Shown one piece after another: positions 2,307-49,877 of a stretch of DNA of 64,000 nucleotides (position 1 is its first letter; the number at the start of each line of letters is the position of its first letter). Position numbers and translations under genes: made by a program. Origin of the DNA: Chloroflexota bacterium (lineage in GTDB: Bacteria; Chloroflexota; Dehalococcoidia; Lucifugimonadales; UBA826); the NCBI GenBank assembly GCA_002722155.1, contig PBKS01000019.1, positions 60,687 to 124,686 of the forward strand, written 5' to 3'. Below the pieces are notes generated by a model that was not told the DNA's origin, made no database searches, and saw only the letters and a program-made list of their open reading frames with translations.

Positions 2307-3461
2307 ATGCTTAATGCATCAGAGTCGCAGTATAAAAGATCCTCAGCGCTTTTTCTTGCCACTGTTTTTATGTTTTTAGCGTCGGCCTACGTAAGCGTGG
2401 GTTGCAATACAGATGAAGAGGGTTCACCTTCACCAGAATCACTCGTAGATTCCAATGCAGCAGTTGCTGTAGAAGAAAGAACAGACAAGAAGATTGATTT
2501 CCCAGTCTTCGTATCAACTAGCATAGTTGGTGACTGGGTCAGAACTATAGGAGGCGACCGAGTTGTTGTTGAAAGTCTAGCTCCTATAGGTAAAGATCCA
2601 CATACATATCAACCTACCCCAAAGCAGGTAGCTGAATTAGGTAAGTCAAAATTAGTTTTTTCAATTGGGTTAACTCTAGAAGGGAGCAACATCCGATCTC
2701 TTCTTGAAAATTCATTGAATCCAGATGCCACACATATACCTTTGGGCCCCCTCGTCAATCCAATTGAATACAAAGGGCATGACGAACACGACGAACATGA
2801 CGAAGACAAAGAGCATGACGAACACGACGAACATGACGAACACGACGAGCATGACAAACACGACGAACACGACGAACATGACGAGCATGACAAACACGAC
2901 GAACACGACGAACACGACGAACATGAGGGCCACGACCACGGAACCCATGATCCGCATTTCTGGTTAGATCCAGCTCGTGTGTCTATTGCCGTCGATGAAA
3001 TAGCAGCCCAACTTTCCCGTGTTGACCCTGATTCGGCTGCCTTCTACCAGGAAAATGCTACCGCTTACAAAGTTCAACTTTCTAACCTTGATAACCAGAT
3101 GGCTTTGGAGTTTGAACAAATTCCTGAAAAAGACCGCAAATTAGTAACTTCTCACGAAGCTCTAGGCTACCTTGGAGACAAATATGGCTTTGAGCTCATA
3201 GGGGCGGTGATTCCTTCAATGAGTACTGAGTCCGGACCAAGTGCGGCCGCCATTGCGAAACTAGTCGACGACCTCAAACATGAGCAAGTTAAAGGCATTT
3301 TTATGGAGAGCGGAGTGCATGAAAAAGTAACAATACAAATAGCGAAAGATGCAAATGTTGAAGTTATAACAGGGTTACAAGTTGAGTACATTCAAGAAGG
3401 AGAATCGTATCTTCAAATGATGACACAGCTTTCAGAATTAATTAGTGAAGGATTGAAATAA
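2307..3461 (+). CDS. znuA: ZnuA/TroA-type metal ABC transporter substrate-binding lipoprotein with a very long His/Asp/Glu loop
   Basis: 384-aa ORF. Signal peptide ending VSVGC. Cluster-9 SBP motifs (DPHTYQPTP, DPHFWLDP, HEALGYL). A central (HDE)n loop is typical of Zn-specific members. No permease or ATPase gene is adjacent. Confidence 0.85.
   Translation: MLNASESQYKRSSALFLATVFMFLASAYVSVGCNTDEEGSPSPESLVDSNAAVAVEERTDKKIDFPVFVSTSIVGDWVRTIGGDRVVVESLAPIGKDPHTYQPTPKQVAELGKSKLVFSIGLTLEGSNIRSLLENSLNPDATHIPLGPLVNPIEYKGHDEHDEHDEDKEHDEHDEHDEHDEHDKHDEHDEHDEHDKHDEHDEHDEHEGHDHGTHDPHFWLDPARVSIAVDEIAAQLSRVDPDSAAFYQENATAYKVQLSNLDNQMALEFEQIPEKDRKLVTSHEALGYLGDKYGFELIGAVIPSMSTESGPSAAAIAKLVDDLKHEQVKGIFMESGVHEKVTIQIAKDANVEVITGLQVEYIQEGESYLQMMTQLSELISEGLK
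2778..2956 (+). repeat. In-frame tandem codon repeat encoding (H-D-E/K)n inside znuA
   Basis: Repeated catgacgaa/cacgacgaa triplet-codon units. A roughly 33-36 nt higher-order unit (gagcatgacaaacacgacgaacacgacgaaca...) occurs twice. It encodes about 60 residues made almost only of H, D, E and K. Confidence 0.9.
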
Positions 3462-3482
3462 AGATCAGATATAACTATTAGA

Positions 3483-3508
3483 CTCCGCTGGGCAGGCAAT
3501 TGCTTCCA
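3483..3508 (+). repeat. 26-nt box copy 1 (ctccgctgggcaggcaattgcttcca), just 3' of the znuA stop
   Basis: 23/26 identical to 3940..3965. gctgggcagg can pair with cctgtccagc at 3534..3543 or 3555..3564. The pairing includes a G-U wobble, which is only valid in a + strand transcript. Confidence 0.6.
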
Positions 3509-24118: not shown

Positions 24119-24193
24119 TGGAGCCGACGGTCAGGTTCGAACTGACGACCTGCTGTTTACAAAACAGCTGCTCTACCACTGAGCTACGTCGGC
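24119..24193 (-). tRNA. tRNA-Thr (anticodon UGU), CCA encoded
   Basis: Manual cloverleaf: acceptor gccgacg/cgtcggc, D arm gctc-agtggta-gagc, anticodon arm gctgt-TTTGTAA-acagc, T arm gtcag-ttcgaac-ctgac, discriminator U plus CCA. Confidence 0.9.
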
Positions 24194-44816: not shown

Positions 44817-46019
44817 ATGACTTTATCAAGTGATCTCCCAGACCAATCAGGTAGATTTGGACGGTTTGGCGGCAGATATGTTCCGGAAACATTAATGCCG
44901 GCCATAAATGAGCTTGAAGAATCTTATGCGAAAGTTCAATTGGATGATGAATTTCAGGTGGAACTCTCAGAACTACTAAGAAATTTTGTGGGAAGGCCAA
45001 CAGAACTGTATTTTGCCCCTAACCTGACAAAACGTTTTGGCGGGGCACAAGTTTTTCTTAAACGTGAAGATTTAGCTCACACCGGAGCACATAAAATCAA
45101 CAATGCGTTAGGCCAAGGTCTCCTAGCCAAGAAAATGAAAAAAACTCGAATAATAGCTGAAACAGGGGCTGGGCAACATGGGGTAGCTACCGCTACTGTC
45201 TGTGCCAAACTCGGATTAGATTGTGTCGTTTACATGGGAGAAGAAGACATAAGAAGGCAAGCGTTAAATGTATTCCGAATGAAGTTATTGGGGGCCGAAG
45301 TTATTTCAGTGAATTCAGGAAGTAAAACTCTTAAAGATGCTATTAATGAGGCAATGAGAGATTGGGTGACTAATGTAGATGATTCTTACTATTTGATCGG
45401 AAGTGTAGTAGGTCCTCATCCTTACCCCATGATAGTGCGTGATTTTCAAAGAATAATAGGACAGGAAAGCAGAAAACAAATTTTAGAACAAGTTGGGAGC
45501 TTGCCGGATTATGTAATAGCTTGTGTTGGAGGTGGTAGTAATGCAATGGGGTTGTTCTACGATTTTATTGGTGATGAGAGCGTTAATTTGATAGGAGTGG
45601 AGGCAGGGGGAGATGGTATAGAGTCTGGCAGACATTCTTCCACAATTTCCGCTGGATCAGTAGGTGTTTTGCATGGAAGTATGTCTTATCTCATTCAAAA
45701 TGAAGATGGTCAGATTATCGAGACTCATAGCATTTCGGCGGGATTAGATTACCCCGGAGTTGGCCCAGAGCATAGTTGGTTGAATGATGGTAATAGGGCC
45801 ACATACGTAAGTGTGGATGATGCCCAGGCCCTTGAAGGCTTCAAATTATTATGTGAGACAGAAGGAATAATTCCAGCACTTGAACCTGCACATGCGGTCT
45901 ATCACGTTTCTCAATTAGCGCCCACATTAAGTAAAGATAAGGTTATATTGATGGGTTTGTCTGGTCGTGGTGATAAGGATATGGAAACCGTGGCAACAGA
46001 GATGGACGTTCGGGTTTAG
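44817..46019 (+). CDS. trpB: Tryptophan synthase beta chain (TrpB1 type)
   Basis: 400 aa. [16 protein letters not shown]-lysine context HTGAHKINN, and GGGSNAMG. Confidence 0.95.
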
Positions 46020-46026
46020 TTTTGAA

Positions 46027-46425
46027 ATGTCACTAATTGCTTCTGGGGTGGCGCATGGGGTTCTATGGAGAATACCACCGCTAGTTTTGCTAATCTCCTT
46101 TTTATTTCCCTCAATGGGCGTCATGTTGGATCATCATTTTCCAGAGAGAGATCCATACCACTCTCATTTGACCCATGTATCAAAACACACGCATTTAGGT
46201 TTAGTGGAGCATACTCACCCGGAGTCAGATATTCCCTTACCCTCCACCGCGATTTTTGTGACAAAAGATGCAGGAATAGGGTCGACTGGAATCTATATTG
46301 ATTTGTTAAAAACAGAACACCGAGTCCTCAGGGCTCCCCTTGTATTGAGTAAATTGTCGATTTTAAAAATAGTCTTTTATAAAGACATAACTCAGACTGT
46401 TGAGATTCCTCCGCCAATCCTATAG
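46027..46425 (+). CDS. Hypothetical single-pass membrane protein with His-rich segment
   Basis: One predicted TM (PPLVLLISFLFPSMGVML), then DHHFPERDPYHSHLTHVSKHTHLGLVEHTHPESD (10 His in 34 aa). The ATG lies 7 nt after the trpB stop. The start is uncertain (ORF-track 45967 overlaps trpB; GTG 46048 is also possible). Confidence 0.5.
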   Translation: MSLIASGVAHGVLWRIPPLVLLISFLFPSMGVMLDHHFPERDPYHSHLTHVSKHTHLGLVEHTHPESDIPLPSTAIFVTKDAGIGSTGIYIDLLKTEHRVLRAPLVLSKLSILKIVFYKDITQTVEIPPPIL

Positions 46426-46478
46426 TGAGTACTTCTATAAATGTACCTTGCCCTTAATTAGGAAAGTGGAGAAAATAA

Positions 46479-47030
46479 ATGCTCTGGCTCCGTGCCATTA
46501 TTTTGGTATTGTCCTTACTTTTAGGACTATATATTCAATCGGTAACCTTGGTTGAAGCTAATGGTTCAATACGCTCATATGAAAAAGAAATAATTGATAA
46601 GTACATCATAGGTTTAGGTACAGCACCTCCTTCTCCAACGATCGGTGTGACTCATTTTGCTGCCTTTGTGGAAGATAAAGAAACGGGTGTGAAATATATG
46701 GACGCTCGCATAGAGTTCCTCGCTACTTTCTCAGGTCCCATTCAGCAGGAAATAGGTCCCTATCAAATGACTAATAGTCTTATGGACCCAATGTATTACG
46801 AGGTAGACACGGCCCTTGAAAGAGAAGGAATTTGGTTAGTAACATTGTCCATAGCATTAGGGGAAGAAACTCTACCCTCTGCGGTGTTTGAGATTGAAGT
46901 TAAAAAACAAAACCCGATAGTACCTATTTTGACTGTGGGAACTTTGTTATTTTTTCTAGTGATTTTGAGTTTGTCACTGCGTGCTTGGGTGAAAGAATAT
47001 ACACAGAAACGAAAAATCGGGAATGTTTAA
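46479..47030 (+). CDS. Hypothetical exported protein with N-terminal signal/anchor and C-terminal TM helix (FixH/YtkA-like beta-sandwich suspected)
   Basis: 183 aa. GGAG SD. Hydrophobic N-terminus, soluble middle ending GIWLVTLSIALGEETLPSAVFEIEV, and C-terminal TM PILTVGTLLFFLVILSLSL. Confidence 0.65.
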   Translation: MLWLRAIILVLSLLLGLYIQSVTLVEANGSIRSYEKEIIDKYIIGLGTAPPSPTIGVTHFAAFVEDKETGVKYMDARIEFLATFSGPIQQEIGPYQMTNSLMDPMYYEVDTALEREGIWLVTLSIALGEETLPSAVFEIEVKKQNPIVPILTVGTLLFFLVILSLSLRAWVKEYTQKRKIGNV

Positions 47031-47794
47031 TGAAAAATAAATTTATACTATATGTTGCTGTTTTGACTTTATTCTTTGTTTTGTCAACAGCTTGTGGCTC
47101 TTCAGAAAATGATCCATCTCCAGCCAGTACAGAATTTAATATTGTAATCAGTGGCGGGAATTTGGTGGGTGATGTTGACTCCTTAAGGATAAAGAAAAAT
47201 GAGGATGTCACTCTAAATTTTGATTCTGATTCTGAAATCACGGTTCATTTGCATGGATATGATATTGAGAAGACGATTTCAGCTGAACACACTGCTGTCA
47301 TGGAATTTAAGGCAAATGCCACCGGAAGATTTGTGGTGACCACTCATGAAGTAGAATCAGAACATCATGGAGACCGTGCATCGCATTCGGATCATGGGCA
47401 TATGGCTGTTGACAATGAGGCTCACGCAGCTTTATTTGAATCTGAGACCTTAAGTTCAGGAGATACCTATAAATATGAAATACCTACTGATTTTAGGGAG
47501 ATTATCATTCCATATCACGACCACATGAGTCATGATTCTGTCGGTCAGATAGAAGTATCAATTCATCATGGTGGTGATGGAGAAGTATCTGTCTATGTGA
47601 GAGATGGGGAACGCCAGTTCCATCCTGAACATGTGATGGTAAAACCAGGAGCTAGTGTTAAATGGATAATCGAATCAGAAGAGAAGGTCCGATTGACTAG
47701 TGGTTTACCTCCATCAAGTCACGGTGATCATTCAAATCACTCGAGTGAGGGGTCTAGTGAGAAAACCCTAATCACCTTAGAAGTATATCCGTAA
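47030..47794 (+). CDS. Hypothetical His-rich lipoprotein with cupredoxin-like segments
   Basis: TAATG coupling to the upstream gene. Signal ending LSTAC. His clusters: VHLHGYD, HEVESEHHGDRASHSDHGH, PYHDHMSHD, SIHHGG, SSHGDHSNHS. FHPEHVMVKPGASVKWI resembles a cupredoxin strand pattern. Confidence 0.65.
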   Translation: MKNKFILYVAVLTLFFVLSTACGSSENDPSPASTEFNIVISGGNLVGDVDSLRIKKNEDVTLNFDSDSEITVHLHGYDIEKTISAEHTAVMEFKANATGRFVVTTHEVESEHHGDRASHSDHGHMAVDNEAHAALFESETLSSGDTYKYEIPTDFREIIIPYHDHMSHDSVGQIEVSIHHGGDGEVSVYVRDGERQFHPEHVMVKPGASVKWIIESEEKVRLTSGLPPSSHGDHSNHSSEGSSEKTLITLEVYP

Positions 47795-47810
47795 CTCATT
47801 TCGTGAATTT

Positions 47811-49346
47811 GTGAATATTAAAATGAAAACATATATGGCACTAACCTTTTTGGGCCTTTCTACACTTTTGTTTGTTCCGGAGGTTGGTGCCCACGGCTTT
47901 GGAGAAAGATATGATTTACCCATTCCTTTAAGCTATTTTCTCCTAGGCTCAGCTCTTGCAGTGGCCTTATCTTTTGCCGTTATTGGTTGGTTTATACGCT
48001 CGAGTGCCAATAACTCTGAGTATCCAAGGTTTAATATTTTTCGATTCTTTGTGATCGAATTGGTTTGCAAAATCACTTCCAAAATATTCGGGTTGATTTC
48101 GGTTTTGATCCTCTTTTTATCGATTCACACCGGTCTTATCGGTACTTCAAATGCGATAGAAAATTTTGCGCCAGTTTTTGTCTGGATCATATGGTGGGTT
48201 GGGGTTGGGTATGTTGTGTGTCTGGTGGGGAATATATGGTTAATTATGAACCCTTGGTTAGTTATATTTAACTACTTGGAACAATTATTTGGTAAACGGA
48301 CAGGGTTTGTAGATTGGCCCAAAAAGCTAGATGCGTGGCCAGCTCTTGGATTTTTCCTTCTATTCGCTTGGATTGAAAATGTACATCCTGCCAGTTCCGA
48401 GCCGTTCAGTTTGGGGATTTTATTAATAATTTATTCTCTTTTGACATGGGGAGGGATGATTTTATTTGGGAAACATGTGTGGTTAACACACGGAGATCCT
48501 TTTTTTGTTTTATTTAATTTGTTTGCTCGCTTTTCTGCTACGGAATTAAGGGTGCATGGCAACAAAAATTGGTGTGCCTCCTGCTCTTCTGGATGTCAGG
48601 AAAACCTTCAGCTAACTGACTGTGTTGATTGTTATGAATGTTGGGAAAATGCACCTTCACAAAATAGGGAATTTTCATTAAGGCCCTGGTCAGCCGGCCT
48701 GTCTCGAGGAGATCGAGTTACCCCTGCAATAATGTTCTTCCATGTGACTGCCCTGGCTACGGTTTCCTTTGATGGGTTTTCTGAAACCCCTGCATGGGTT
48801 GAGATCCAAACTATTTTGTGGCCGCTAATTGACCCACTTCCGGGTTCTGCAGCTGCCATGGTGAAAACATTGGGAATAATTCTGGTGCCTATAATTTTTG
48901 CAGGGGTATATTTGTACGTATGTGGTTTTATATCTCGAATGTCCCATGGGCAAATGACGCCCACAGATATTAGGATGAGTTTTGTATTTTCTTTAGTCCC
49001 AATAGCCCTAGCCTATAACCTTTCCCACTATCTATCCTTTCTATTAATTACTGGACAGGAAATAATTCCTCTTGTGTCAGATCCTTATGGCTTTGGATGG
49101 AATTTGTTTGGTACGACAGACTTTAAGGTAAATATAGCCATTATTGATGCTAGGGTTGCTTGGATATTTTCAGTGATTGCTTTGGTGACAGGTCACATAA
49201 TATCTGTATTTACTGCCCACGTAATAGCTTTGAGGAAAACTAAAACGCATGCAATTGCTGTCAGAAGCCAATACCCGATGCTGTTTTTAATGGTGTTTTA
49301 TACTGCCGTGAGCTTGTGGATAATTGCTCAACCAATTGTGGAATAG
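47811..49346 (+). CDS. Hypothetical polytopic membrane protein (about 11-12 TMS) with predicted mature N-terminal His and a six-Cys loop
   Basis: 511 aa. Signal-like N-terminus with a V-G-A|H-G-F-G cleavage context (His codon 47892..47894). Loop WCASCSSGCQENLQLTDCVDCYECW (48573..48641). Start alternatives are 47823 and 47835. Confidence 0.7.
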   Translation: MNIKMKTYMALTFLGLSTLLFVPEVGAHGFGERYDLPIPLSYFLLGSALAVALSFAVIGWFIRSSANNSEYPRFNIFRFFVIELVCKITSKIFGLISVLILFLSIHTGLIGTSNAIENFAPVFVWIIWWVGVGYVVCLVGNIWLIMNPWLVIFNYLEQLFGKRTGFVDWPKKLDAWPALGFFLLFAWIENVHPASSEPFSLGILLIIYSLLTWGGMILFGKHVWLTHGDPFFVLFNLFARFSATELRVHGNKNWCASCSSGCQENLQLTDCVDCYECWENAPSQNREFSLRPWSAGLSRGDRVTPAIMFFHVTALATVSFDGFSETPAWVEIQTILWPLIDPLPGSAAAMVKTLGIILVPIIFAGVYLYVCGFISRMSHGQMTPTDIRMSFVFSLVPIALAYNLSHYLSFLLITGQEIIPLVSDPYGFGWNLFGTTDFKVNIAIIDARVAWIFSVIALVTGHIISVFTAHVIALRKTKTHAIAVRSQYPMLFLMVFYTAVSLWIIAQPIVE

Positions 49347-49410
49347 CTTTGATCTTGCTAAATTATGACGATTGCAAAATTTATATCAGCCACTAAAAAG
49401 TGAGAACAGT

Positions 49411-49635
49411 ATGTCTAGTGAACCGGAAAGTGTTAAATCTTTTACCTGCCCCAAATGCTCAAACACCTCATTCGAGACGGGAGAGATTCGAACAACTGGA
49501 TCGGGACTTTCGAGATTTCTAGATCTTCAGAATCAAAAATTTGCCCACATAACATGTGACAGCTGTGGATACACTGAGTTTTTTAAAAGGCGTGGGGGTC
49601 GGGCAGGAAACATACTTGATCTGTTTACCGGGTAG
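49411..49635 (+). CDS. Small zinc-ribbon protein
   Basis: CPKC...(33 aa)...CDSC pair of CxxC knuckles. About 74 aa from the ATG at 49411. Confidence 0.6.
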   Translation: MSSEPESVKSFTCPKCSNTSFETGEIRTTGSGLSRFLDLQNQKFAHITCDSCGYTEFFKRRGGRAGNILDLFTG

Positions 49636-49847: not shown

Positions 49848-49877
49848 TTGACCCTCAATTATACTGGGCAGTATAAT
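49848..49877 (+). promoter_or_regulatory. Candidate sigma-70 promoter of the pur operon
   Basis: TTGACC (49848..49853), 18-nt spacer, TATAAT (49872..49877). Implies a leader of about 148 nt before the purF ATG. Confidence 0.45.

What the first reader, a model, noticed from the sequence alone, without database searches (positions are those of the whole stretch)
46027..49346. Uncharacterised four-gene His/Cys-rich envelope module (candidate metal-handling system) directly after trpB
Four same-strand ORFs are packed with minimal spacing: 7 nt after the trpB stop, then a 53-nt gap, a TAATG overlap, and a gap of 16-28 nt. (1) A single-pass membrane protein with 10 His in 34 residues (DHHFPERDPYHSHLTHVSKHTHLGLVEHTHPESD). 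(2) An exported protein anchored by a C-terminal TM helix, with a beta-sandwich-like middle (FixH/YtkA-like by feel only). (3) A lipoprotein with five His clusters (VHLHGYD, SEHHGDRASHSDHGH, PYHDHMSHD, SIHHGG, SSHGDHSNHS) and cupredoxin-like strand patterns, but no type-1 copper Cys. (4) A 511-aa protein with about 11-12 TMS. I cannot assign any of the four to a characterised family from memory. The composition (extracytoplasmic His clusters, cupredoxin-like folds, a large permease-like partner) suggests uptake, chaperoning or detoxification of a transition metal, with Cu or Zn most plausible. This is the best candidate in the window for an undescribed system. Its function is inferred from composition only.
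Basis: inference. Interest (0 to 1): 0.65.

Follow-up and report, generated by a model that had tools for sequence, protein, structure and literature searches.

The report
Uncharacterised copper-handling four-gene membrane module
Four adjacent genes in a marine Dehalococcoidia (SAR202-type) genome encode three membrane-tethered, outward-facing metal-binding proteins and a large membrane protein from a very widespread family that no database names; comparison with relatives points to copper capture and trafficking, a poorly understood step in bacterial metal nutrition.

Summary
The four ORFs are real, lie at the stated coordinates and are co-conserved. Among 80 species-level genomes, 30 keep the full 1-2-3-4 order.

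- **ORF2** is a YtkA/CrdA-like beta-sandwich with a C-terminal anchor. This is a copper-chaperone fold.
- **ORF3** is a lipoprotein with a cupredoxin domain related to multicopper oxidases and nitrite reductase. It has invariant HxHGYD…H and no type-1 Cys.
- **ORF1** is a Chloroflexota-specific, His-rich, single-pass protein.
- **ORF4** has about 12 TM segments. Its family has at least 6,170 clusters at 50% identity. It has no Pfam or NCBIfam model, no PDB sequence match and no Foldseek match. His28 is conserved just after the signal peptide, and His/Met residues are conserved in the membrane helices.

The conserved core is ORF3+ORF4, found in Chloroflexota, Methylomirabilota, Deinococcota, Proteobacteria and Actinomycetota.

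Links to copper come from independent sources:
- A CopC-CopD-cytochrome c fusion replaces ORF3 directly upstream of ORF4 in 23 of 80 loci.
- Fusion proteins exist: ORF4–Cu/Zn-SOD, ORF4–YtkA and SCO1–ORF3-core.
- Neighbours elsewhere include PCuAC and SigC plus a copper membrane monooxygenase.

The best reading is a copper acquisition and trafficking module analogous to, but not homologous with, Bacillus YcnJ/YcnI. Metal specificity and transport direction are inferred, not shown.

The parts
46027..46425 (+). ORF1: 132-aa single-pass membrane protein (N-terminal TM around residues 15-33) with an extracytoplasmic His-rich tail
   Evidence: Homologues occur in 43 of 80 species loci, all Chloroflexota. 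Conserved motif: DHH..ER.P.H.H…H.H…H.H…PP. No Pfam or NCBIfam hit.
46129..46230 (+). ORF1 His-rich segment DHHFPERDPYHSHLTHVSKHTHLGLVEHTHPESD (9 His in 34 residues)
   Evidence: The DHH, H.H and H.H positions are at least 90% conserved among 49 aligned homologues.
46479..47030 (+). ORF2: signal peptide (1-27), YtkA/CrdA-like beta-sandwich (about 28-145) and C-terminal TM anchor (about 147-170) with a basic tail
   Evidence: AlphaFold2 pLDDT 79.7, eight strands plus a C-terminal helix. Foldseek top hit is H. pylori CrdA 9ll2/9ll4 (E 4e-5, TM 0.75-0.79 on the target), followed by PmoD and FetP/P19/FtrA. Family profile against PDB gives CrdA at E 6.8e-6. 31 of 59 homologues hit Pfam YtkA. Present in 67 of 80 loci.
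47030..47794 (+). ORF3: lipoprotein (lipobox LSTAC, Cys22) with a cupredoxin-like core interrupted by a His-rich insertion
   Evidence: Pfam Cupredoxin_1 scores 26.4 bits against a cut-off of 27. 33 of 43 homologues hit Cupredoxin_1, 28 hit Cu-oxidase_2 and 11 hit Cu-oxidase_3. Profile against PDB: Cu nitrite reductase 4.9e-6, nitrosocyanin 6.8e-5, CuA domains. Present in 48 of 80 loci and beside ORF4 homologues in Variovorax, Pseudonocardia, Mycolicibacterium and Rhodococcus.
47246..47263 (+). ORF3 motif H73-L-H75-G-Y-D78, candidate metal ligands together with H106
   Evidence: H73 and H75 are invariant; G76, Y77, D78 and H106 are at least 90% conserved in 43 sequences from five phyla. The motif aligns with the HxHG copper-ligand motif of a NirK/MCO-type protein (alignment).
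47351..47749 (+). ORF3 lineage-specific insertion (residues about 108-240). It holds the His clusters SEHHGDRASHSDHGH, PYHDHMSHD, SIHHGG and SSHGDHSNHS, and a second beta-rich region
   Evidence: Single-domain homologues (116-160 aa) run directly from ...TGRF.I..H to the last strand ...LEV.P. The insertion is present only in the longer Dehalococcoidia forms.
47811..49346 (+). ORF4: 511-aa polytopic membrane protein (signal peptide plus 10-12 TM helices) of an unnamed family
   Evidence: The family has 6,170 50%-identity clusters at E<=1e-3 and 1,398 at E<=1e-30. No Pfam or NCBIfam hit for the query or for 97 diverse members. No PDB sequence hit. Foldseek against PDB: best E 0.24, TM<=0.16.
47892..47930 (+). 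ORF4 N-terminal extracytoplasmic motif H28-GFGERYDLPIPL, directly after the predicted signal-peptidase site VGA|H
   Evidence: Among 139 family representatives, position 27 is Ala in 89% and position 28 is His in 95%; L36, P37 and P39 are at least 91% conserved. The motif is also seen in Variovorax, haloarchaea and actinobacteria.
48573..48641 (+). ORF4 Cys-rich loop C255-x2-C-x3-C…C271-x2-C-x2-C277, modelled as a small beta/knuckle domain
   Evidence: The loop is accessory: 88 of 139 family representatives have no Cys here and 46 have at least four. Which side of the membrane it faces is ambiguous.
49026..49292 (+). ORF4 conserved membrane-embedded His/Met residues: H406 (49026-28), H462 (49194-96), H470 (49218-20), M490 (49278-80), M494 (49290-92)
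   Evidence: H406 is 97%, H462 96%, H470 96% and M494 91% conserved family-wide. They lie on the last three predicted TM helices. A role as a translocation pathway is inference.

Best explanation
The module is an extracytoplasmic copper capture and trafficking system.

Core. The core is a cupredoxin-like lipoprotein (ORF3) paired with a novel ~12-TM protein (ORF4). ORF3 probably binds Cu through His73, His75 and His106. ORF4 would receive the metal at its outward-facing N-terminal His motif and move it along a ladder of conserved His/Met residues in its last three helices.

Accessories. ORF2 is a membrane-anchored YtkA/CrdA-type chaperone. ORF1 is a membrane-anchored His-rich tail. Both are accessory binders that concentrate or store the metal at the outer face of the single membrane of this monoderm organism.

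Physiological role. The most likely role is acquisition of scarce copper and its supply to membrane or external cuproenzymes. This is functionally analogous to Bacillus YcnJ (CopC-CopD-YtkA) with YcnI, but uses a non-homologous membrane component.

Shown: the gene order, its conservation, the folds of ORF2 and ORF3, the fusions and the neighbourhoods. Inferred: copper as the substrate, the ligand residues, the hand-off order and the inward direction.
For: 1. Co-conservation. The full 1-2-3-4 order occurs in 30 of 80 species loci. ORF2 is present in 67, ORF3 in 48 and ORF1 in 43.
2. Spread of the core. The ORF3+ORF4 pair alone recurs in Methylomirabilota/Rokubacteria, Trueperaceae, a gammaproteobacterial MAG, Variovorax, Pseudonocardia, Mycolicibacterium and Rhodococcus.
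3. Replacement by a known copper importer type. In 23 of 80 loci a CopC-CopD-cytochrome c fusion (Pfam CopC 8e-23, CopD 8e-21) sits directly upstream of ORF4. It co-occurs with ORF3 in only one locus, which suggests equivalent roles.
4. Fusions. ORF4 joined to Cu/Zn superoxide dismutase (Sod_Cu 6.6e-34) and ORF4 joined to YtkA. SCO1/SenC joined to the ORF3 core, 45% identical over HLHGYD…ATGRF…H.
5. ORF2 is YtkA/CrdA-like. YtkA domains (CtaK, the YcnJ C-terminus) act in CuA assembly (PMC13344008).
6. ORF3 is a cupredoxin whose HxHG aligns with an MCO/NirK-type copper-ligand motif.
7. Neighbours elsewhere:
   - PCuAC in Sulfitobacter.
   - sigC plus the copper membrane monooxygenase hmoCAB on two mycobacterial plasmids.
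   - A multicopper oxidase and a plastocyanin in Halobaculum.
   - A galactose-oxidase-like gene in Pseudonocardia.
8. ORF4 topology has both termini outside. This fits a periplasmic SOD fusion, as in CopD-YtkA of YcnJ.
Against: - No experiment bears on any member of the ORF4 family.
- The window has no copper regulator, CopA, SCO1 or oxidase gene beside the module.
- His-rich stretches also bind Zn, Ni and Co.
- Cu/Zn-SOD needs zinc as well as copper.
- In haloarchaea the ORF4 homologue lies near P19-type 'iron transporter' and DyP-like genes in at least four loci.
- In Haloferax volcanii the neighbour is an ATPase with Zn/Cd-type motifs.
- CopCD next to ORF4 could mean the two do different jobs rather than the same one.
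- The 80 loci are the best of 580 and are dominated by Dehalococcoidia, so part of the co-occurrence is shared ancestry.
- ORF2 in the window has Asn, not His, as its first mature residue.
- Actinobacterial ORF4 homologues show no cleavable signal peptide before the conserved His. A histidine brace using a free N-terminus therefore cannot be universal.
Confidence: 0.55

Rival explanations
1. Same metal, opposite purpose. The module is a copper resistance or sequestration system. The outer-face His-rich proteins buffer excess copper, and ORF4 exports it or keeps it out of the cytoplasm.
For: The best structural and sequence match of ORF2 is the H. pylori copper resistance determinant CrdA. In cultured organisms many homologues are on plasmids or chromids beside heavy-metal P-type ATPases, a CDF transporter or a multicopper oxidase. 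CopC/CopD were first named as resistance genes.
Against: In Dehalococcoidia the module sits among housekeeping genes (trpB, purF, purM, purN) with no CopA, CsoR or CueR beside it. The source is an open-ocean lineage, where copper is scarce (background knowledge). CopCD/YcnJ, SCO1, YtkA/CtaK and PCuAC act in acquisition and cuproenzyme assembly (PMC12362106, PMC13344008). The mycobacterial pair follows sigC and flanks a copper-requiring monooxygenase.
Confidence: 0.15
2. An iron uptake system of the EfeUOB / FetMP / FtrABCD type. ORF3 acts as a cupredoxin ferroxidase, ORF2 as a P19-like iron binder, and ORF4 replaces the FTR1-type permease.
For: Haloarchaeal ORF4 homologues lie next to, or within a few kb of, P19 (Pfam Iron_transport) and DyP-like genes. 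The ORF2 model also matches FetP, P19 and FtrA (E 5e-3 to 1e-2). FtrB of FtrABCD is a non-classical cupredoxin (PMC11966278).
Against: ORF4 has no REXXE motif and no FTR1 Pfam hit. ORF3 has no sequence match to FtrB (PDB 8VUK) or any other PDB chain by phmmer, and its ligand motif (HxH…H) differs from the D118/H121 of FtrB (PMC11966278). The CopCD, SCO1, YtkA, PCuAC, Cu/Zn-SOD and CuMMO links are to copper, not iron. P19 proteins themselves bind copper (PDB titles).
Confidence: 0.1
3. A zinc (or nickel or cobalt) acquisition and buffering module. The His-rich tails serve as Zn/Ni binding sites and ORF4 as the importer.
For: His-rich, Cys-free extracytoplasmic segments are typical of Zn/Ni binders (background knowledge). 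Haloferax volcanii has a P1B ATPase with CPC…K…DxG (Zn/Cd-type) motifs directly downstream of its homologue. Haloarcula has a CDF transporter nearby. The SOD fused to ORF4 needs Zn as well as Cu.
Against: The Haloferax/Haloarcula subfamily lacks the conserved N-terminal His motif and is the most divergent group. Most of the His clusters are not conserved. The conserved partners (YtkA-like, cupredoxin, CopCD, SCO1, PCuAC) are copper proteins. No Zur-type regulator or ZnuABC gene was seen in any neighbourhood examined.
Confidence: 0.1
4. ORF4 is not a transporter but a transmembrane redox protein, for example a cupric or ferric reductase or an electron conduit to ORF3. It would use the Cys-rich loop (rubredoxin- or ferredoxin-like) and the membrane His residues for cofactors.
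For: The CxxCxxxC…CxxCxxC loop is modelled as a small knuckle domain. One source labels a relative 'polyferredoxin'. The adjacent CopCD fusions carry a cytochrome c domain, which suggests redox chemistry in the pathway. FtrABCD includes a polyferredoxin membrane partner (background knowledge).
Against: The Cys loop is missing in 88 of 139 family representatives. Only three membrane His residues are conserved, two of them 8 residues apart on one helix, which does not fit a di-haem site. There is no match to any haem, flavin or Fe-S family.
Confidence: 0.07

Closest known systems
Bacillus subtilis YcnJ (CopC-CopD-YtkA fusion) with YcnI, the ycnKJI copper-acquisition operon
   Same: The parts list matches: an outward-facing beta-sandwich Cu binder, a polytopic membrane protein, a YtkA-type domain and an extra membrane-anchored Cu-binding protein with a C-terminal TM helix. 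All sit on the outer face of a monoderm membrane (PMC12362106, PMC13344008). ORF4–YtkA fusions mirror CopD–YtkA. CopC-CopD fusions replace ORF3 next to ORF4 in 23 of 80 loci.
   Different: ORF4 shows no homology to CopD (no Pfam hit; hhalign probability 0.1%). ORF3 is an MCO/NirK-type cupredoxin with HxH…H, not a CopC with an N-terminal histidine brace. ORF2 is YtkA-like, not DUF1775 (YcnI). There is no YcnK-type regulator. The parts are separate genes.
YtkA-domain proteins: CtaK (Bacillus) and CrdA (Helicobacter pylori, PDB 9ll2/9ll4)
   Same: ORF2 shares the fold and weak but consistent sequence similarity. Like CtaK it is membrane-tethered on the outer face.
   Different: ORF2 is anchored by a C-terminal TM helix rather than a lipid (CtaK) or being soluble (CrdA). 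The window protein itself does not reach any Pfam threshold. Its copper ligands are not identified.
FtrABCD / EfeUOB / FetMP, the cupredoxin- and P19-assisted ferrous iron uptake systems
   Same: All combine a periplasmic non-classical cupredoxin, an Ig-like Cu-binding protein and a polytopic permease. Haloarchaeal ORF4 homologues neighbour P19- and DyP-like genes.
   Different: ORF4 has no FTR1 domain and no REXXE motif. ORF3 has no sequence relation to FtrB. The window has no P19, M75 or DyP gene.
PmoD / CopCD accessory genes of copper membrane monooxygenase operons
   Same: Both have a signal peptide, a cupredoxin-like beta-sandwich and a C-terminal TM helix (ORF2 against the PmoD soluble domain 6cpd, E 3e-3). 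The ORF3+ORF4 pair flanks hmoCAB on two mycobacterial plasmids.
   Different: The structural similarity is weak. No CuA-like Cys/Met ligands are present. The window has no monooxygenase genes.
Multicopper oxidase / copper nitrite reductase cupredoxin domains
   Same: The ORF3 core aligns with these domains, including the HxHG motif.
   Different: ORF3 is a single domain of about 100 residues, without a type-1 Cys and without the other three HxH motifs needed for a trinuclear cluster. It is always paired with a membrane protein.

Membership tests
CopD / YcnJ-type copper importer (ORF4) | Pfam CopD domain (PF05425) or detectable profile homology to CopD | tested here: not met
   No Pfam hit at E<=1. 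hhalign of the ORF4 alignment against five CopC-CopD fusions gives probability 0.1%.
CopD / YcnJ-type copper importer (ORF4) | Copper import activity, or growth support under copper limitation | not testable with these tools
   Needs genetics and metal measurements.
FTR1/EfeU/FetM iron permease (ORF4) | FTR1 domain with two REXXE motifs in TM helices | tested here: not met
   No FTR1 Pfam hit. No RExxE anywhere in ORF4.
Any described membrane-protein family or solved fold (ORF4) | A match to a Pfam-A or NCBIfam model, a PDB sequence or a PDB fold | tested here: not met
YtkA-like / CrdA (ORF2) | Sequence membership of Pfam PF13115 | tested here: inconclusive
   The window ORF2 has no hit at E<=1. 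31 of 59 homologues hit YtkA, best E 8.6e-5. The family profile hits CrdA 9ll2 at E 6.8e-6.
YtkA-like / CrdA (ORF2) | Ig-like beta-sandwich fold superposable on a solved member | tested here: met
   Foldseek against CrdA 9ll2/9ll4: E 4e-5 to 7e-5, probability 1.00, TM 0.75-0.79 normalised to the target, rmsd 3.2-3.5 Å over 112 columns. The model has pLDDT 79.7.
YtkA-like / CrdA (ORF2) | Copper binding | not testable with these tools
   The conserved H59 (VGxxH) and Met97/105 are candidate ligands only.
Cupredoxin superfamily (ORF3) | A match to cupredoxin profiles | tested here: met
   The window ORF3 scores 26.4 bits on Cupredoxin_1, just under the 27-bit cut-off. 33 of 43 homologues match, best 2.7e-12. 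PDB profile hits: Cu nitrite reductase 4.9e-6, nitrosocyanin 6.8e-5, CuA domains 2.6e-4.
Type-1 (blue) copper protein (ORF3) | His-Cys-His-Met ligand set | tested here: not met
   The only Cys is the lipobox Cys22. The conserved candidate ligands are H73, H75 and H106.
Multicopper oxidase (ORF3) | Four HxH-type motifs forming a trinuclear cluster across two or more cupredoxin domains | tested here: not met
   Only one conserved HxH motif, in a single conserved domain. Oligomeric assembly was not tested.
FtrB-type cupredoxin of FtrABCD (ORF3) | Sequence relation to FtrB (PDB 8VUK) and its D118/H121 and EXE motifs | tested here: not met
   phmmer of ORF3 against all PDB chains finds nothing at E<=10. 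FtrB is not among the profile hits. Motifs are taken from PMC11966278.
Histidine-brace copper site (ORF4 N-terminus) | His as the first residue of the mature protein, after signal-peptide cleavage | tested here: inconclusive
   Ala|His is found at positions 27/28 in 89% and 95% of 139 representatives. Actinobacterial members have the His 5-9 residues from the annotated start with no signal peptide. Cleavage and coordination cannot be tested here.

The most novel reading that the evidence does not exclude
The ORF3+ORF4 pair defines a previously unrecognised, phylogenetically broad two-component copper transporter. ORF3 is a small HxH…H cupredoxin. ORF4 is a ~12-TM protein with an outward N-terminal His motif and a membrane His/Met ladder. 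The family is found in at least five bacterial phyla, with ORF4 relatives in haloarchaea, and has more than 6,000 50%-identity clusters. It is unrelated to CopCD/YcnJ, CcoA, Ctr or P-type ATPases. It would supply copper to respiratory oxidases, Cu/Zn-SOD and copper monooxygenases, and would be a major unnoticed route of copper entry in marine SAR202 and many soil bacteria.
Probability: 0.4. Interest if true: 0.8.

Novelty: new variant of a known kind. Interest (0 to 1): 0.68.

Why it matters
How bacteria recognise and take up copper is an acknowledged gap. A recent study of YcnJ/YcnI states that little is known for any species (PMC12362106).

This module pairs recognisable copper-chaperone folds with a very large membrane-protein family that no database names. 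That family is linked, across phyla, to CopCD, SCO1, PCuAC, Cu/Zn-SOD and copper monooxygenase genes.

Homologues exist in culturable, genetically tractable organisms: Variovorax paradoxus, Mycolicibacterium, Rhodococcus and haloarchaea. The hypothesis can therefore be tested directly.

If it holds, three things follow. A missing transporter class is added to copper homeostasis. Thousands of 'hypothetical proteins' gain an annotation. It becomes clearer how abundant deep-ocean SAR202 bacteria obtain a scarce trace metal.

Tried and rejected
- **ORF4 as a CopD relative.** Rejected by hhalign (probability 0.1%) and by Pfam.
- **ORF4 as an FTR1-like permease.** No domain and no REXXE motif.
- **A hidden Pfam family for ORF4.** 97 diverse members scanned, none matched.
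- **ORF3 as a blue copper protein, an FtrB or a full multicopper oxidase.** Ligand sets are not met.
- **ORF2 as YcnI/DUF1775 or CopC.** No such hits. YtkA/CrdA came up instead.
- **A regulatory RNA or a defined promoter or terminator for the module.** Rfam finds only a distant tRNA. Promoter- and terminator-like sites are no more frequent than in shuffled sequence.
- **A second paralogue or a CopCD gene elsewhere in the window.** None found.
- **A functional link to trpB.** The trpB…purF flanks recur only within Dehalococcoidia and are read as lineage synteny.
- **Literature.** Searches with six homologue accessions and with keyword sets found no description of the family.
- **The Cys loop as the key functional element.** Rejected because it is absent in 63% of representatives.

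Full report
**1. Observation**

The region holds four same-strand ORFs with exactly the spacing reported.

| Gene | Coordinates | Length | Gap to the previous gene |
|---|---|---|---|
| trpB | ends 46019 | – | – |
| ORF1 | 46027-46425 | 132 aa | 7 nt |
| ORF2 | 46479-47030 | 183 aa | 53 nt |
| ORF3 | 47030-47794 | 254 aa | TAATG overlap |
| ORF4 | 47811-49346 | 511 aa | 16 nt from GTG, 28 nt from the ATG at 47823 |

- All quoted His clusters are present.
- The only numerical slip is that the 34-residue ORF1 string has 9 His, not 10.
- His makes up 8.3% of ORF1 and 7.9% of ORF3, against 2.35% in the window's long ORFs.
- Best hits to ORF4 come from marine Chloroflexota, Dehalococcoidia and SAR202 metagenome-assembled genomes.
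- Pattern scans for sigma-70 promoters and intrinsic terminators give no more sites than shuffled sequence. Rfam finds only a tRNA 22 kb away. Transcriptional organisation therefore cannot be stated beyond the tight spacing.

**2. Is the set conserved?**

A pattern scan of one genome per GTDB species found at least 580 species with an ORF4 relative. The best 80 loci were fetched. Profile HMMs for ORF1-3, built iteratively on the ORFs of these loci, gave the following architectures.

| Architecture | Loci |
|---|---|
| 1-2-3-4 (including three with a duplicated or split gene) | 30 |
| 2-3-4 | 11 |
| 2-4 | 7 |
| 3-4 (all non-Chloroflexota: Rokubacteria/Methylomirabilota, Trueperaceae, a gammaproteobacterial MAG) | 5 |
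| Containing a ~756-aa gene upstream of ORF4 | 23 |

- The ~756-aa gene is a CopC-CopD-cytochrome c fusion by Pfam (CopC 7.8e-23, CopD 7.8e-21, cytochrome c 2.4e-9).
- ORF3 (48 loci) and the CopCD fusion (23 loci) share a locus only once (L065).
- The flanking trpB, purF, purM and purN genes recur only inside Dehalococcoidia. I read them as inherited synteny.
- These 80 loci are the closest relatives and are mostly one class, so part of the co-occurrence reflects ancestry.
- The cross-phylum pairs described in sections 5 and 6 are the stronger evidence.

**3. ORF4**

*No described family or fold:*
- No Pfam-A or NCBIfam model matches it.
- None matches 97 diverse relatives.
- A family profile finds no PDB sequence.
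- A confident AlphaFold2 model (pLDDT 80.4, pTM 0.80) finds no PDB fold with Foldseek (best E 0.24, TM<=0.16).

*Family size:*
- There are 6,170 50%-identity clusters at E<=1e-3 and 1,398 at E<=1e-30.
- Every source name seen is 'hypothetical protein', apart from two domain-driven labels.

*Conserved positions across 139 representatives, 31-46% identical to the query:*
- Ala27|His28, a signal-peptidase-like site followed by His (89% and 95%).
- L36, P37 and P39 of the HGFGxRYDLPxP motif.
- N118, W125, E189, Y208, D321, H406, Q416, D424, H462, H470 and M494.
- The Cys-rich loop is present (at least four Cys) in only 46 of the 139.

*Topology and other tests:*
- Hydropathy, the positive-inside rule and the model give N-out and C-out with 10-12 helices.
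- The side of the membrane that the Cys loop faces is unresolved.
- H406, H462, H470, M490 and M494 lie on the last three helices, between mid-membrane and the cytoplasmic side. I infer that they line a metal pathway. I could not inspect the coordinates.
- hhalign against CopC-CopD fusions gives probability 0.1%.
- There is no REXXE motif.

**4. ORF2**

- Architecture: signal peptide, eight-stranded sandwich, C-terminal TM helix and a basic tail (AlphaFold2 pLDDT 79.7).
- Foldseek's top hits are H. pylori CrdA (E 4e-5, TM 0.75-0.79 on the target). DUF4426, PmoD and the FetP/P19/FtrA group follow.
- Independently, a profile of 59 homologues hits CrdA in PDB at E 6.8e-6.
- 31 of the 59 homologues hit Pfam YtkA.
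- YtkA domains (CtaK, and the C-terminus of YcnJ) act in CuA-centre assembly in Bacillus (PMC13344008).
- In homologues the first mature residue is Asn or His. The His forms lack the internal VGxxH histidine. This looks like a relocated ligand, but that is inference.

**5. ORF3**

- The conserved unit is a single cupredoxin-like domain of about 100 residues.
- H73 and H75 are invariant. G76, Y77, D78, H106 and the terminal LEVxP are nearly invariant, in 43 sequences from five phyla.
- In the window's protein a His-rich insertion of about 130 aa lies between H106 and the last strand. It holds the other four His clusters, and these are not conserved.
- Of 43 homologues, 33 match Cupredoxin_1 (best 2.7e-12), 28 match Cu-oxidase_2 and 11 match Cu-oxidase_3.
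- The profile hits Cu nitrite reductase (4.9e-6), nitrosocyanin (6.8e-5), CuA domains and two-domain laccases. Its HLHG aligns with an HxHG copper-ligand motif.
- There is no type-1 Cys.
- The same small protein precedes ORF4 homologues in Variovorax (E 1.9e-32), Pseudonocardia, two Mycolicibacterium species and Rhodococcus.

**6. ORF1**

- N-terminal TM helix, then DHH..ER.P.H.H…H.H…H.H and a terminal PP.
- Found in 43 of 80 loci, all Chloroflexota.
- It matches no family.

**7. Which metal?**

*Evidence for copper:*
- CopC-CopD-cytochrome c lies next to ORF4 in 23 loci.
- A CopD-cytochrome c-AhpC/TSA fusion lies upstream in Methylomirabilis.
- Fusion proteins exist: ORF4–Cu/Zn-SOD (6.6e-34) and ORF4–YtkA, and SCO1/SenC–ORF3 core.
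- A PCuAC gene is divergent from the Sulfitobacter homologue.
- On two mycobacterial plasmids the pair follows sigC and lies within about 5 kb of the copper membrane monooxygenase hmoCAB (gene names from PMC8784404).
- A multicopper oxidase and a plastocyanin are in the Halobaculum locus.
- A galactose-oxidase-like gene is in the Pseudonocardia locus.

*Evidence for other metals:*
- Haloarchaeal homologues sit near P19 'Fe2+ transport' and DyP-like genes. P19 proteins do themselves carry copper.
- Haloferax volcanii has a downstream ATPase with Zn/Cd-type motifs. That subfamily lacks the N-terminal His motif.

**8. Mechanism proposed**

Chloroflexota are monoderm (background knowledge), so outward-facing metal handlers must be tethered. 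All three here are: ORF3 by lipid, ORF2 by a C-terminal helix and ORF1 by an N-terminal helix.

My proposal is as follows.
- These proteins capture and hold copper at the membrane surface.
- The ORF3 His73/His75/His106 site hands copper to the outward N-terminal His motif of ORF4.
- ORF4 moves it along its His/Met residues, most likely inward, for later loading of cuproenzymes.

This parallels YcnJ/YcnI, where Cu(II) is exchanged between tethered extracellular domains before import (PMC12362106). The folds, conservation, fusions and neighbourhoods are shown. The ligands, the order of hand-off, the direction and copper itself are inferred.

**9. Rivals**

- Copper resistance or sequestration.
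- P19/FTR1-style iron uptake.
- Zn or Ni handling.
- A redox role for ORF4 through its Cys loop.

All four are weaker but not excluded.

**10. Novelty**

- The kind of system is known: tethered copper chaperones plus a membrane transporter.
- The membrane component and its obligate cupredoxin partner are not described in Pfam, NCBIfam, PDB or the papers I could search.
- I rate it a new variant of a known kind.
- There is a real chance (about 0.4) that ORF3+ORF4 is a new, widespread copper transporter class.

Noticed in passing
L043:2870-3560, L041:2899-3620, L038:2951-3640, L028:~2800-3500 (not in the window): An AhpC/TSA (thioredoxin-fold) lipoprotein gene sits in the CopCD-type Dehalococcoidia clusters. 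It has a conserved in-frame TGA exactly at the redox motif (…VLVFYRG[LY]F-TGA-GIC-R…). That would read as a U-x-x-C selenocysteine active site. No SECIS search was done.
   Followed up: partly
L043:2117-2854, L028:1648-2754, L023:1978-3252 and 13 further loci: Another uncharacterised exported protein ('X') lies between the ORF2 homologue and the CopC-CopD-cytochrome c fusion. It has a signal peptide, then A|H[EDG]xxE.G.Y.LVVGF..EPA.EG, a His/Met-rich middle and a C-terminal TM helix. The four members scanned have no Pfam hit. His as the first mature residue suggests another copper binder.
   Followed up: partly
L065:5878-8667 (Candidatus Methylomirabilis MAG): The ORF4 homologue is 929 aa, with a C-terminal extension of about 400 aa that has no Pfam match. 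It is preceded by a 439-aa protein that also has no Pfam match, and by a CopD-cytochrome c-AhpC/TSA fusion.
   Followed up: partly
L086:7001-7076 (Variovorax paradoxus CP063167.1, INQ48_39915): The annotated start codon lies downstream of the conserved ARA|HGFGQRFDLPLP motif, so the deposited protein probably lacks its signal peptide and N-terminal His motif.
   Followed up: partly
L087, L089, L096 (Sulfitobacter, Neorhizobium, Sagittula plasmids): These ORF4 relatives have a different N-terminal motif (A|H…G[FM][VI][LM]L[LM]PT). Two of the three sit among nicotinate-catabolism and LIV-type ABC transporter genes, without an ORF3-like partner. They may be a functionally distinct branch.
   Followed up: no
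window 49372-49635 (+): An 87-aa Zn-ribbon ORF (two CxxC pairs) follows ORF4 directly. A Zn_ribbon_13 gene also lies downstream in L001-L003, there after an inserted MFS transporter gene. Any relation to the module is unknown.
   Followed up: no
window 49848-49877 (+): The best sigma-70-like site in the region (11 of 12 matches) lies just upstream of purF. This suggests the module and purF are separate transcription units, though the scan overall is no better than chance.
   Followed up: no
window 24122-24193 (-): A tRNA gene is the only Rfam match in the whole 64-kb window.
   Followed up: no
window 45967-46425 (+): An alternative GTG start for ORF1 at 45967 would overlap the end of trpB by 53 nt. 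Homologues of 132 aa support the ATG at 46027.
   Followed up: partly
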